From a virus: DNA of 25,864 nucleotides. A program made the translations under genes and the position numbers. Below are positions 23,117 to 25,179 of this stretch, in pieces (positions within the stretch are counted from its first letter, which is position 1; every line of letters starts with the position of its first letter). The notes below the pieces were generated by a model. That model had not been told where the DNA came from, did not search any database, and saw nothing but the letters and a program-made list of their open reading frames with translations. The stretch is from the UHGV virus genome UHGV-0869939; one strand, given 5' to 3'.

Positions 23117-23773
23117 TCAGAAGAATCCTGCTTTGTCGTTGATGTACTCCGCGTGGGTCTGGATATCACGCAGGCATTTGCTCACACCGACGATGTAGCA
23201 GAACATGGTGGTCAGCTCCGCCGCCGCGCCCGATACATCATGCCCGTCGTCCTGCAACTGATTCAGCAGATTCATCAGCAATGAGTTCTCCGTCAGGCCG
23301 AGAACACCAGACGGAGAATGAATCAGACTGCGGTAGCCGGGCTTCAGTGGGGCACTGTATTCTTTTTTGTCTTCCAGCTTGATCGCCTCCATAATGGCGG
23401 GCATGAAGCCTGACAAGACCTTCTCCACTTTTGTTTCTTGTTGTCTTAAACGTTTCTCGCATTCAATGAAGTAGCGTCGCACCTGGCGACCTTTTTCGTT
23501 ACGCTCGACCATCGCCAGCTCTTTGGCTGTATCAAGGGTGAGGTGGTACTCTTTGCGGTTGTGGCCGCCTCTACCAGATGTTTGCTTTCCCAAATTGGAA
23601 AGCAAAATATAGTCTTGATTTTCAATGAATTCGTATTCTGATATGCGATTTGTAATCCATGCTGCAAACACCTTTTTAACACCTAAAAAAGCGTGCAGAT
23701 CGCGGGCATTACAAAGTAGGGCTGTTTCGTTAGATATAGTGCCGTTGAATACGGGGATGAGTTGAGCGTTCAT
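23117..23773 (-). CDS. Antirepressor (AntA/AntB-type N-terminal domain with a C-terminal domain paralogous to the 24922..25179 product)
   Basis: N-terminal [54 protein letters not shown]...[31 protein letters not shown] matches the AntA-type pattern as I recall it; GGAG RBS. Confidence 0.7.
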
Positions 23774-24044
23774 GATGGCGTCTCCACTTAGCGAATTACA
23801 TCACCACCGCTGAGACCAATCAGATGGTGGTGAACTGAACGGAGTTGGTCTTACCGGCCTAAGTGGTACCGGCGTCCTTTCGGACCCCCATTCAGCCCAC
23901 CATAATTCTGGCATGACTGTGCTATACGCATAAAAAAACCACGTCTGGCGTGGTATGCGCCACTTAGTAATCCGGGAGACCAATCCCGGCACTGGATTTT
24001 GCCAGTGCCCGATTACTATGGCACAAGAGGAGTGCAATGTAAAT

Positions 24045-24059
24045 TTACCGCAAAGGTAA
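24045..24059. promoter_or_regulatory. TTACC-N5-GGTAA palindromic site (copy 4 of 6)
   Basis: TTACCGCAAAGGTAA in the divergent intergenic region; 93 bp centre-to-centre from copy 5. Confidence 0.6.
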
Positions 24060-24137
24060 TGATAAACGCGAAGAAATATTAAAATCAACCGTATTTGGTT
24101 GATTGCGTTTAACGCTTGATCACCTGAAAGCAAGATA

Positions 24138-24152
24138 TTACCTTTAAGGTAA
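24138..24152. promoter_or_regulatory. TTACC-N5-GGTAA palindromic site (copy 5 of 6)
   Basis: TTACCTTTAAGGTAA, 20 bp upstream of the ATG at 24173, preceded by a GATATT -10-like hexamer. Confidence 0.6.
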
Positions 24153-24172
24153 TGTTATTGTGAGGAAAAGCA

Positions 24173-24853
24173 ATGGAAGTTTTCTGGATAGTTGTTGGTG
24201 TGGTTGCGGTGATTATTTACGTTATCAACCAGAACAAGACTAAGATCTCTGATCGTACGGTCGTTAATCATAACAAAACGATAAAGACCGAAGATGGGGA
24301 GATAACGATTAATCGTACACAGGTGATAGAACACACCTCTACTCAGTTTCAAAAAACTGGAGGTAATGCGCCTAATATTTCCGCACCTCCTGCTTATGAT
24401 AGTGCGATAATCCAGACATATTATAAACAGCAGGAGTTAGCAAAAGAGAGGCAACTGATTCAGCCAAAGCCATTTACAGCTGAGCTTCCACCTGGAGTGT
24501 CAACGCGTCCGGCATATCATGGAAGATTCCCTGGTGATGACACATCGTCTCAGTCACCTAAAAAAGCACCTCAGGCAGTATCAGAGCCAGCAAGAATACC
24601 TTCTGTATCGCCGTCAAAAGAAGAATCATCTAACGAAGTTTCAAGTGCCCGCAAGCAGTGTTTGCGATGCAGAATAACCCTTCCATATGAAAAATTCAGG
24701 AAATCGTCAAAAAATCCAGATGGATTGACTAAGTGGTGTGCAAGGTGTCTCGATGGCCCAAAGAATACACGCCATATGAAGTGGTGCCCAATTTGTAATG
24801 TCCGCAGAAAACGAACCAGTTTTACCCTAATAATCAAAATGCGGATGGCTTAA
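24173..24853 (+). CDS. Membrane-anchored protein with tandem zinc-ribbon-like repeats; reading frame broken near 24802-24805 (probable full extent to 24900)
   Basis: N-terminal TM helix FWIVVGVVAVIIYVI; C-terminal repeat CLRC...FRKSSKNPDGLTKWCARC; a second copy (CPIC...NQFYPNNQNADGLMAWCKTCW) continues in the +2 frame and ends at TAG 24898-24900, right at a terminator. Confidence 0.5.
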   Translation: MEVFWIVVGVVAVIIYVINQNKTKISDRTVVNHNKTIKTEDGEITINRTQVIEHTSTQFQKTGGNAPNISAPPAYDSAIIQTYYKQQELAKERQLIQPKPFTAELPPGVSTRPAYHGRFPGDDTSSQSPKKAPQAVSEPARIPSVSPSKEESSNEVSSARKQCLRCRITLPYEKFRKSSKNPDGLTKWCARCLDGPKNTRHMKWCPICNVRRKRTSFTLIIKMRMA

Positions 24854-24899
24854 TGGCATGGTGCAAAACGTGCTGGGACGAGCACAAAGCGAAACGATA

Positions 24900-24925
24900 G
24901 GCCGCTCTTGCGGCCTTTTCTTTAT
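24900..24925. terminator. Bidirectional rho-independent terminator
   Basis: GGCCGC-TCTT-GCGGCC followed by TTTTCTTTAT; lies between convergent genes. Confidence 0.6.
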
Positions 24926-25179
24926 GTGGTTTGTTTTCGTAGTTGTTCGGCACAATAGTCGAGATGTGTTTGCAGATCCTGCATAGACATCTGTGAGCTG
25001 GTGACGTAGTTAATCAGTGCAGTCAGTTCGGCAAGTGGGCCATCGACATTAAATCCATCCTTATCGAGATCCCGGAGTAATTTCATCAAGTGCGATCCCT
25101 CCACCAGTGACCTGACGCCTCCCGGCGTGTGAATCCTTTCGGTAAATCCGTCTTCCAGTGGATAGTGATACTGCTGCAT
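24922..25179 (-). CDS. Small protein homologous to the antirepressor C-terminal domain; candidate SOS-induced antirepressor or immunity modulator
   Basis: 85 aa from the ATG at 25179 with GGAGAAG RBS; the upstream in-frame ATGs at 25302/25281 would place the LexA box and the operator inside the coding sequence; aligns with residues about 130-218 of the 23117..23773 product. Confidence 0.55.
   Translation of the reverse strand: MQQYHYPLEDGFTERIHTPGGVRSLVEGSHLMKLLRDLDKDGFNVDGPLAELTALINYVTSSQMSMQDLQTHLDYCAEQLRKQTT

What the first reader, a model, noticed from the sequence alone, without database searches (positions are those of the whole stretch)
23117..25179. Antirepressor C-terminal domain duplicated as a stand-alone gene
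The 85-aa product of 24922..25179 aligns with the C-terminal region of the 218-aa AntA-type antirepressor (for example PLEDGFTERIHTPGGVRSLVEGSHLMKLLRDLDKDGFNVDGPLAELT versus [47 protein letters not shown]). The two paralogues are under different control, the full-length one behind the operator-rich leader and the small one behind a LexA box. This suggests the C-terminal domain is the repressor-binding module and the small protein is the SOS-triggered inducer, analogous to LexA-controlled antirepressors such as Tum of phage 186 or the Gifsy antirepressors.
Basis: partly seen in the sequence, partly recalled or inferred. Interest (0 to 1): 0.55.

Follow-up and report, generated by a model that had tools for sequence, protein, structure and literature searches.

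The report
Two paralogous phage antirepressors, differently wired
An epsilon15-like E. coli prophage carries the already characterised small SOS-controlled antirepressor (Ant of Salmonella phage SPC32H) plus a second, larger antirepressor whose C-terminal domain is an old paralogue of it and is held in check by the prophage repressor and an antisense RNA; the parts are known, and only their kinship appears undescribed.

Summary
The 85-aa product of 24922..25179(-) matches residues 137-210 of the 218-aa AntA protein (23117..23773(-)): 42% identity, E=7e-16, and both match phrog_450. The functional reading is largely right but mostly already known.

**Small protein.** It is about 87% identical to Ant of Salmonella phage SPC32H (PDB 5D50). 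That protein is a tetrameric, LexA-controlled antirepressor that inactivates the non-cleavable Rep repressor. The window's LexA box aligns with the SPC32H box, at the base mutated in SPC32N.

**Large protein.** It is a generic N-terminal domain fused to an Ant-like C-domain. AntA is used here; Bro-N or Rha replaces it in relatives. In phage records the C-domain occurs only where a Rep-type repressor is present. The gene sits behind a Rep operator and an isrK-C4 leader. The C4 loops covary with the ant ribosome-binding site across five phages.

Both genes carry a Rep operator. The stand-alone gene is the near-universal one and the fused gene is accessory. The split is ancient (38-43% identity in every phage).

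**Likely circuit.** SOS induces small Ant, Rep falls, and the fused Ant is derepressed under C4 control. This step is inferred.

Novelty is low: new members of known kinds.

The parts
24922..25179 (-). Small ant gene, 85 aa: ortholog of SPC32H Ant (stand-alone antirepressor)
   Evidence: PDB 5D50_E E=1.3e-47; 88% identity by tblastn and 87% in the mafft alignment; phrog_450 E=1.4e-47; same position next to the tailspike gene as in SPC32H and epsilon15
25188..25191 (-). Shine-Dalgarno GGAG of small ant, 8 nt before the ATG
   Evidence: read from the sequence; GGAG present in five of the six aligned phages
25199..25218 (-). LexA box TACTGTATAAATATACAGTT (core CTGT-N8-ACAG at 25201-25216)
   Evidence: aligns column for column with the SPC32H box, and SPC32N differs from SPC32H by C->A in the ACAG half-site
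25256..25270 (.). Rep operator TTACC-N5-GGTAA upstream of the small ant promoter, between ant and the divergent tailspike gene
   Evidence: half-sites invariant in position in 6 phages; the same site is annotated 'protein_bind repressor, lysogeny' in the epsilon15 record
24899..24916 (.). GC-rich hairpin acting as a likely bidirectional terminator, shared by small ant and the convergent 226-aa ORF
   Evidence: sequence
23117..23773 (-). Large ant gene, 218 aa: AntA N-domain + Ant-like C-domain
   Evidence: phrog_377 'anti-repressor Ant' E=2.8e-66
23498..23710 (-). AntA domain (PF08346), residues 22-92
   Evidence: 91.8 bits vs cut-off 27; the N-terminal 134 aa that contain it have tblastn matches in 602 phage records of many bacterial phyla
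23126..23371 (-). Ant-like C-terminal domain, residues 135-216, paralogue of the small Ant
   Evidence: found in only 32 phage records, all of which encode a Rep-type repressor
23784..23791 (-). C4 target 'b2' CUAAGUGG overlapping the large-ant Shine-Dalgarno (GGAG at 23782-23785)
   Evidence: exact complement of the C4 loop CCACUUAG; covaries with the loop in 5 phages
23813..23819 (-). C4 target 'a2' UUGGUCU in the large-ant 5'UTR
   Evidence: complement of C4 AGACCAA; phiV10 has TTGGCGTA paired with TACGCCAA
23823..23907 (-). C4 antisense RNA (RF01695)
   Evidence: 61.2 bits vs gathering 45, full-length model match
23932..24008 (-). isrK-like sRNA (RF01394) with intrinsic terminator; carries copies of both C4 targets (a1 at 23977-23983, b1 at 23960-23967)
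   Evidence: 67.7 bits vs gathering 50; terminator; targets
24015..24043 (-). Predicted sigma-70 promoter TTTACA-17-CATAGT (TG-extended) whose -10 hexamer ends 6 nt upstream of the isrK 5' end
   Evidence: consensus match only
24045..24059 (.). Rep operator abutting the -35 of the isrK-C4-ant promoter
   Evidence: an operator 36 nt upstream of the isrK 5' end in Tyrion, Klebsiella phi13.3 and contig L012, 36-37 nt in phiv142-3 and 33 nt in phiV10
24138..24152 (.). Second Rep operator, between the ant leader and the divergent 226-aa ORF
23030..23044 (.). Rep operator downstream of large ant and upstream of the 108-aa / YafO-like gene pair

Best explanation
The window is the late region of an epsilon15/phiV10-like (Uetakevirus) E. 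coli prophage that uses the SPC32H-type Rep/Ant switch. The 85-aa gene is the primary inducer. In a lysogen LexA sits on the box at 25199-25218. DNA damage removes LexA, small Ant is made, and, as shown for SPC32H, it binds the C-terminal tetramerisation domain of the non-cleavable Rep and takes Rep off its TTACC-N5-GGTAA operators. The 218-aa gene is a second, accessory antirepressor: a widely shuffled N-terminal domain (AntA here; Bro-N or Rha in relatives) fused to an ancient paralogue of Ant, which most likely supplies Rep binding and/or tetramerisation. It is wired like phage P1 immI. A promoter abutted by a Rep operator drives isrK-C4-ant, and the C4 antisense RNA pairs with the ant ribosome-binding site. 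The large Ant should therefore be silent in a lysogen and appear only after Rep has been removed, or on infection. It would then reinforce commitment to lytic growth, with C4 setting a phage-specific gate. What is shown here: the homologies, the regulatory motifs, their conservation and the C4 covariation. What is inferred: Rep binding by the large protein, the order of events, and the positive-feedback role.
For: Small Ant: 5D50_E E=1.3e-47. LexA box and Rep operator align with SPC32H and epsilon15, and the SPC32N variant differs in the box. The published role of SPC32H Ant/Rep is summarised in PMC7380047, PMC9638917 and PMC9986798. Rep: the repressor of the closest E. coli relatives matches 5D50_A at E=4e-42 and is identical in 15 records. 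The operator motif is annotated as a repressor site in epsilon15 and clusters at OL/OR. Paralogy. Modularity: the same C-domain follows AntA, Bro-N or Rha. The N-terminal AntA-containing region is in 602 phage records, while the C-domain is in 32, all with Rep. Function of the fused form: overexpressing ZX5 ORF4 (Bro-N plus a C-domain 95% identical to this one) cut lysogens from 1e9 to 1e6 (PMC9782041; identity). Regulation: isrK and C4 score above their Rfam gathering thresholds. Operator-isrK-C4 is conserved upstream of every fused ant examined. C4 loops and both target pairs covary in 5 phages, with the b target on the ant SD.
Against: The repressor gene is outside the window, so its presence is inferred from operators and relatives. 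The C-domain is only 37-42% identical to small Ant, and I could not map the 5D50 interface residues, so Rep binding by the large protein is untested. The ZX5 experiment used a GST fusion at very high expression and did not test Rep binding. Promoters are consensus matches only, and promoter-like sites in the region are not enriched over shuffles. The whole-duplex energy of C4 against its targets is not better than mononucleotide shuffles (59/500 and 126/500 reach it); the support lies in short exact words and their covariation. The fused gene is frameshifted in phiV10 and split in contig L012, so it is dispensable. The primary SPC32H papers could not be read here.
Confidence: 0.7

Rival explanations
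1. The shared domain in the large protein is only an oligomerisation (tetramerisation) scaffold. The large protein would act through its AntA domain on another target, such as DNA or the repressor of a different co-resident prophage, and would not touch Rep.
For: SPC32H Ant is a tetramer (PMC9638917), so part of the conserved core must serve self-association. Identity to small Ant is only 37-42%. AntA domains occur with many other C-termini in 602 phage records.
Against: The C-domain occurs only in phage records that encode Rep (32 of 32). Three unrelated N-domains are swapped over a constant C-domain, which is the reverse of what is expected if the N-domain carried the specificity. The gene sits behind a Rep operator. 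ZX5 ORF4 lowers lysogeny and repressor transcript levels.
Confidence: 0.2
2. The large protein modulates the small one. Because the two share a tetramerising fold, they would form mixed tetramers that tune, buffer or poison small-Ant activity, so the large protein would act as an anti-antirepressor or a timer.
For: Common fold and tetrameric state of Ant. Both are encoded within 2 kb and co-occur in 21 of 32 records.
Against: No direct evidence. Overexpressing the fused form favours lytic growth rather than lysogeny. The two clades have stayed at 38-43% identity in all lineages, which fits insulation better than co-assembly.
Confidence: 0.08
3. The small ORF is a recent partial duplicate or decaying fragment of the large gene with no function of its own, and the LexA-like palindrome is fortuitous.
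For: It is short and lacks any Pfam or NCBIfam family. RefSeq calls it hypothetical.
Against: Orthologs are 63-88% identical across E. coli, Salmonella, Enterobacter and Klebsiella phages, while small vs fused is 38-43% in every phage. It is present where the large gene is absent, as in epsilon15 and SPC32H. A crystal structure with Rep exists. The LexA box is conserved in 6 phages.
Confidence: 0.01

Closest known systems
Ant-Rep antirepression switch of Salmonella podophage SPC32H (Kim & Ryu 2013 J Virol; Kim et al. 2016 PNAS; PDB 5D50, 5D4Z)
   Same: Small Ant is about 87% identical. It has the same length, the same position next to the tailspike gene, the same LexA box and the same upstream Rep operator. 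Relatives of this prophage encode a Rep homologous to 5D50_A.
   Different: SPC32H and epsilon15 have only the small gene. This prophage adds a fused paralogue under different control. The E. coli-type Rep is only 42% identical to SPC32H Rep (37% over residues 92-198, the dimerisation plus Ant-binding part), although Ant is about 87% identical.
Phage P1/P7 immI operon (c4 antisense RNA - icd - ant, C1-controlled Op51), from established knowledge of P1
   Same: A C4-family RNA lies in the leader of an antirepressor gene. Two short target motifs are duplicated upstream (in isrK) and downstream (on the ant RBS). A promoter lies next to an operator of the main repressor. C4/target pairs differ between phages as between P1 and P7.
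   Different: There is no conserved icd-like leader ORF. The upstream target copy lies in an isrK-type sRNA. The antirepressor's C-domain is Ant-like. The main repressor is Rep, not C1.
Gifsy-1 isrK-orf45-anrP locus (Hershko-Shalev et al. 2016, PMC4825925)
   Same: An isrK sRNA with a leaky terminator precedes a translationally silent antirepressor-like gene on one transcript. isrK scores 67.7 bits here.
   Different: The published mechanism is activation by IsrK in trans through orf45, and the output is AntQ. No conserved orf45 is present here. Homology of AnrP to this protein was not tested.
ORF4 'anti-repressor' of E. coli Uetakevirus vB_EcoP_ZX5 (PMC9782041)
   Same: Its C-domain is 95% identical to the window's large Ant. 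It comes from the same genus and has the same Rep. Overexpression shifts the phage toward lysis.
   Different: Its N-domain is Bro-N, not AntA. As far as my term search of that paper shows (no occurrence of 'LexA' or 'SPC32H'), it does not discuss the small Ant, the LexA box, the SPC32H work or the leader RNAs.
LexA-controlled antirepressors Tum (phage 186) and GfoA/GfhA (Gifsy) (PMC3121763); N15 AntC recalled from memory
   Same: Same logic: a non-cleavable repressor is inactivated by a small protein whose gene is repressed by LexA.
   Different: No sequence relationship was detected or tested here. The small gene is monocistronic rather than part of a dinI operon. The resemblance is functional analogy only.

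Membership tests
SPC32H-type small antirepressor Ant | Sequence homology to SPC32H Ant over its full length | tested here: met
   5D50_E E=1.3e-47, residues 2-85 vs 3-86; 87-88% identity
SPC32H-type small antirepressor Ant | LexA box at the promoter, at the position mutated in SPC32N | tested here: met
   Box at 25199-25218 aligns with the SPC32H box; SPC32N differs by C->A in ACAG. LexA binding itself was not tested.
SPC32H-type small antirepressor Ant | Cognate non-cleavable Rep repressor (two HTH domains plus C-terminal tetramerisation/Ant-binding domain) in the same phage | tested here: inconclusive
   The repressor region is not in the window. All 32 phage records with the domain encode Rep. 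The Rep of relatives matches 5D50_A at E=4e-42. The Rep operator motif occurs 6 times in the window against 0.02 expected.
SPC32H-type small antirepressor Ant | Tetramer that binds Rep and releases it from DNA | not testable with these tools
   Needs biochemistry or multimer modelling.
Ant-like domain (phrog_450) as the C-domain of the 218-aa protein | Significant sequence and fold similarity to Ant | tested here: met
   phrog_450 E=5.7e-36; 5D50_E E=8.2e-14; Foldseek top hits 5D50_G/H with prob 1.00 (model pLDDT only 69)
AntA/AntB antirepressor family (PF08346) | AntA domain above Pfam's gathering score | tested here: met
   91.8 bits vs 27, residues 22-92
P1/P7-type immI (C4-controlled antirepressor) | C4 RNA on the same strand in the ant leader | tested here: met
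   RF01695 61.2 bits vs 45; conserved upstream of every fused ant examined
P1/P7-type immI (C4-controlled antirepressor) | C4 loops complementary to duplicated targets, one covering the RBS, supported by covariation | tested here: met
   Four different b-loop/target pairs and two a pairs keep complementarity in 5 phages. Whole-duplex energy is not significant.
P1/P7-type immI (C4-controlled antirepressor) | icd-like leader ORF coupled to ant | tested here: not met
   The 37-codon ORF at 23801-23914 is not conserved in phiV10, Tyrion, the Klebsiella phage or L012.
Gifsy-1 isrK locus | isrK sRNA with terminator upstream of an antirepressor gene | tested here: met
   RF01394 67.7 bits vs 50; hairpin plus U-run
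Tum / Gifsy GfoA-type antirepressors | Sequence homology | not tested
   Those sequences were not retrieved. The PHROG hits of the small protein are only phrog_450, 15539 and 1760.

The most novel reading that the evidence does not exclude
A two-tier relay built from paralogous antirepressors. The LexA-gated small Ant fires first. Loss of Rep then derepresses a second Ant paralogue, which is fused to an exchangeable AntA/Bro-N/Rha domain and gated by a phage-specific C4 antisense RNA. This second protein would lock in induction, or let the phage overcome or cross-induce related Rep-type prophages. The N-domain would add a second, still unknown target, and the two paralogues could possibly co-assemble.
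Probability: 0.35. Interest if true: 0.5.

Novelty: new member of a known kind. Interest (0 to 1): 0.33.

Why it matters
Three practical points follow. First, there is an annotation gap. The small gene is called 'hypothetical' in RefSeq and 'unknown function' in PHROGs and has no Pfam family, although a crystal structure and genetics exist for a protein about 87% identical to it. It can be named in the many E. coli, Salmonella, Klebsiella and Enterobacter prophage records where its orthologs occur. Second, the result explains what the variable 'antirepressor' next to the tailspike gene of many E. coli Uetakeviruses has in common: an Ant-like module specific to Rep-type repressors. That gives a concrete, testable target for that protein. 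Third, it offers a compact natural example of one repressor-inactivating domain placed under two input logics: SOS through LexA, and repressor plus antisense-RNA immunity. This is relevant to prophage induction and cross-talk in polylysogens. None of it overturns current understanding.

Tried and rejected
- A single-sequence AF2 model of the whole 218-aa protein was useless (pLDDT 36), so only the C-domain model with a 24-sequence alignment was used.
- The primary SPC32H papers and the epsilon15 genome paper are not held. I relied on citing papers, the PDB entry and my memory of the abstracts, so the 5D50 interface residues could not be mapped onto the paralogue.
- The word-indexed homolog search with the small protein returned only stand-alone orthologs and truncated or extended gene calls. 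The exhaustive profile search was needed to find the fused forms, and it showed a small family of 59 clusters.
- A 95-aa 'stand-alone' member of the fused clade (P0123) turned out to be the C-terminal piece of a split Bro-N gene, so it is not an independent small gene.
- An icd/orf45-like leader peptide was considered and rejected because it is not conserved.
- Whole-molecule C4-target duplex energy gave no signal over shuffles; covariation of the short motifs did.
- Pfam hits of the neighbouring ORFs (DUF724, Stc1, DUF1319) are below their cut-offs and were ignored.
- Recent in-phage duplication was rejected from the identity matrix.
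Full report
**Context.** The window is the packaging, structural and tail region of an epsilon15/phiV10-like podophage (genus Uetakevirus) of E. coli. It is 97% identical over most of its length to phages EC.W1-9, TL-2011b, phiv142-3 and phiV10. The same arrangement occurs as a prophage in E. coli chromosomes such as strain MB31. The finding lies between the last tail or internal-virion genes and the tailspike gene.

**The observation.**
- BLASTP of the 85-aa product against the 218-aa product gives 42% identity over 74 ungapped residues, E=7e-16.
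- Both proteins match PHROG family 450 (E=1.4e-47 and 5.7e-36).
- Both match one solved chain, 5D50_E 'Anti-repressor protein' (E=1.3e-47 and 8.2e-14).
- An AF2 model of the large protein's C-domain is only moderately confident (pLDDT 69). Its only credible matches in the PDB are the Ant chains of 5D50 (prob 1.00, TM 0.52-0.74).
- The large protein's N-terminus is a clear AntA domain (PF08346, 91.8 bits).

The similarity is therefore real homology, not chance.

**What the small gene is.** 5D50 is the Rep-Ant complex of Salmonella phage SPC32H, a member of the same genus.
- From papers I could read: SPC32H Ant is made when LexA is cleaved and inhibits the lytic repressor by protein-protein contact (PMC7380047, citing Kim & Ryu 2013).
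- The C-terminal tetramerisation domain of Rep is the part that contacts Ant (PMC9986798).
- The primary papers are not held. My memory of their abstracts agrees with these summaries.

The window's gene is about 87% identical to SPC32H ant. It sits at the same place, divergent from the tailspike gene. Its upstream region aligns base for base with those of SPC32H, SPC32N, epsilon15, phiv142-3 and a Klebsiella phage. The ACTGTAT / ATACAGT arms of the LexA box are shared by five of the six (the Klebsiella phage differs at one core base), and the half-sites of a TTACC-N5-GGTAA palindrome about 55 bp further upstream are invariant in all six. SPC32N, the variant I recall as constitutively lytic, differs from SPC32H in this alignment by a C-to-A change in the ACAG half-site of the box. 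The small gene is thus an ordinary ortholog of a characterised, structurally solved, SOS-controlled antirepressor.

**The repressor and its operators.** The repressor gene lies outside the window.
- In all close E. coli relatives it is one identical 194-aa protein, homologous to SPC32H Rep (5D50_A, E=4e-42).
- The palindrome TTACC-N5-GGTAA occurs 6 times in the window (0.02 expected) and 11 times in EC.W1-9, including beside rep.
- In the epsilon15 record three of these sites (left of rep) and the one upstream of gp19 are annotated as repressor-binding sites; further copies of the motif lie in the rep-gp39 interval. SPC32H has the same clusters.

I therefore read the motif as the Rep operator. 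It lies upstream of both antirepressor genes (25256-25270; 24045-24059 and 24138-24152).

**What the large gene is.**
- Its N-terminal 134 residues, which contain the AntA domain, have tblastn matches in 602 phage records from Firmicutes to Proteobacteria.
- Its C-domain is found in only 32 phage records, all epsilon15-like, and every one of them encodes a full-length Rep.
- In relatives the same C-domain (93-95% identical) follows a Bro-N domain instead of AntA (EC.W1-9, TL-2011b, ZX5).
- In the 1.84-billion-protein representative library the whole family is only 59 clusters. Its fused members carry AntA, Bro-N or Rha N-domains.

So the C-domain is the lineage-specific, repressor-linked module and the N-domain is exchangeable. 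This is the pattern expected if the C-domain carries Rep specificity. There is one piece of published functional evidence. GST-ORF4 of phage ZX5 has Bro-N plus this C-domain, and ZX5 has the same Rep. Overexpressing it during infection lowered lysogens a thousand-fold and lowered repressor transcript by 75% (PMC9782041). A term search of that paper found no occurrence of 'LexA' or 'SPC32H', so it does not appear to connect ORF4 with the small Ant.

**Direction and age of the duplication.**
- Small-Ant orthologs are 63-88% identical across E. coli, Salmonella, Enterobacter and Klebsiella phages.
- Fused C-domains are 53-77% identical across the same range.
- Small versus fused is 38-43% in every phage.
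- Every one of the 32 records with the domain has the small gene. Twenty-one (about two thirds) also have the fused gene, and none has it alone. SPC32H, SPN1S and the epsilon15-like phage VB_ST_E15 have only the small gene, as does the epsilon15 reference record itself.
- The fused gene is frameshifted in phiV10 and split in a metagenomic contig.

The split is therefore old. The stand-alone gene is the core component, and the fused gene belongs to an accessory cassette. 'Duplicated as a stand-alone gene' most likely reverses the history.

**Control of the large gene.** Rfam finds an isrK sRNA (23932-24008, 67.7 bits) and a C4 antisense RNA (23823-23907, 61.2 bits) on the ant strand in the leader.
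- A consensus promoter (TTTACA-17-CATAGT) has its -10 hexamer ending 6 nt upstream of the isrK 5' end, and the operator at 24045-24059 abuts its -35.
- Operator-isrK-C4 precedes the fused ant in phiv142-3, phiV10, Tyrion, a Klebsiella phage and contig L012, whatever the N-domain. The operator lies 36 nt upstream of isrK in Tyrion, the Klebsiella phage and L012, 36-37 nt in phiv142-3 and 33 nt in phiV10.
- The C4 hairpin loop CCACUUAG is complementary to CUAAGUGG, which overlaps the ant Shine-Dalgarno, and to a second copy inside isrK. AGACCAA is complementary to UUGGUCU in both places.
- Across five phages the loop changes (CCACTTAG, CCTTTTAG, CCTTTGTAG, CCTGTGAC; and AGACCAA versus TACGCCAA). 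The ribosome-binding-site targets change with it in all five, and the isrK copies do so in all but the Tyrion b1 site.

This is the a1/b1-c4-a2/b2 logic of the phage P1/P7 immI operon (established knowledge of P1), here without a conserved icd-like ORF. It also resembles the Gifsy-1 isrK-orf45-anrP locus (PMC4825925). Whole-duplex energies were not significant, so the evidence rests on the covariation.

**Most likely mechanism.**
1. In the lysogen, LexA represses small ant. Rep and C4 keep the fused ant off.
2. DNA damage removes LexA, and small Ant tetramers dismantle Rep. This step is shown in SPC32H and inferred here by orthology.
3. Loss of Rep opens the isrK-C4-ant promoter. Fused Ant is then made to the extent that C4 allows, and it adds to Rep inactivation or acts during infection or superinfection. 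This step is inferred.

I put about 0.9 on steps 1-2 and about 0.55 on Rep being the target of the fused protein. The main rival is that the shared domain is only a tetramerisation scaffold. A minor rival is that the two paralogues co-assemble.

**Verdict.** Both genes are new members of known kinds. The un-noted element, as far as the searchable literature shows, is that the two antirepressors of these phages are paralogues sharing a Rep-linked domain under two different input logics. That is a tidy but incremental point.

Noticed in passing
window 23823-24008 (-); L002, L008, L009, L012: isrK and C4 RNAs form a P1-immI-like unit. C4 loop sequences differ between phages, and their ant-RBS targets covary with them in all five phages (the isrK copies in all but one site), suggesting phage-specific antisense immunity types within Uetakeviruses.
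   Followed up: yes
window 2491-2505, 5579-5593, 23030-23044, 24045-24059, 24138-24152, 25256-25270: The Rep operator motif TTACC-N5-GGTAA is scattered through the late region (6 sites; 11 in phage EC.W1-9), including upstream of the terminase and portal regions. This is reminiscent of the dispersed C1 operators of phage P1.
   Followed up: partly
window ~25680 (tailspike ORF 25375..25686): A one-base insertion relative to MB31 and phiv142-3 (GTTCCATGAG vs G-TCCATGAG) truncates the tailspike/tail-fibre gene at 103 aa. This is either a defective prophage or a sequencing error.
   Followed up: yes
window ~24820 (ORF 24173..24853): A one-base deletion relative to MB31 (CAG-TTTT vs CAGCTTTT) changes the C-terminus of the 226-aa membrane-anchored, Cys-rich protein (phrog_6762). 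The intact form is 242 aa.
   Followed up: yes
window 22162-22987 (-): A 108-aa ORF (phrog_5933) overlaps a 170-aa YafO-like toxin (weak Pfam hit, PGAP name in relatives). This is a toxin-antitoxin-like pair just downstream of a Rep operator, and part of the same accessory cassette as the fused ant.
   Followed up: partly
L002 3015-3250 (phiV10); L012 1755-2434: The fused antirepressor is frameshifted in phiV10 (annotated as p23 + p22) and split into a Bro-N piece and a 95-aa C-piece in a metagenomic contig. The accessory paralogue decays repeatedly while the small ant stays intact.
   Followed up: partly
relatives: L003 9088-9672, L013 340-936, versus window 24922-25179: Small Ant is about 87% identical between the E. 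coli and Salmonella phages, while Rep is only 42% identical (DNA-binding domain 53%, middle domain 32%, Ant-binding C-domain 44%). The antirepressor is far more conserved than the domain it binds, although the operator half-sites are the same.
   Followed up: partly
window 24922-25302 (-): Gene callers often extend the small ant to 126-127 aa (cluster P0004 has 833 members), running through the LexA box and operator. RefSeq names the 85-aa form 'hypothetical protein' and PHROG 450 is 'unknown function', despite PDB 5D50.
   Followed up: partly
window 5183-5256 (-): A tRNA gene (73 bits) lies between the terminase and portal regions. It is annotated tRNA-Arg in related phages.
   Followed up: no
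window 21038-21889 (+): A 283-aa protein with a signal-peptide-like N-terminus (phrog_6118, unknown function) sits at the end of the tail operon. It is present in EC.W1-9 but absent from epsilon15 and phiV10 at this position.
   Followed up: no
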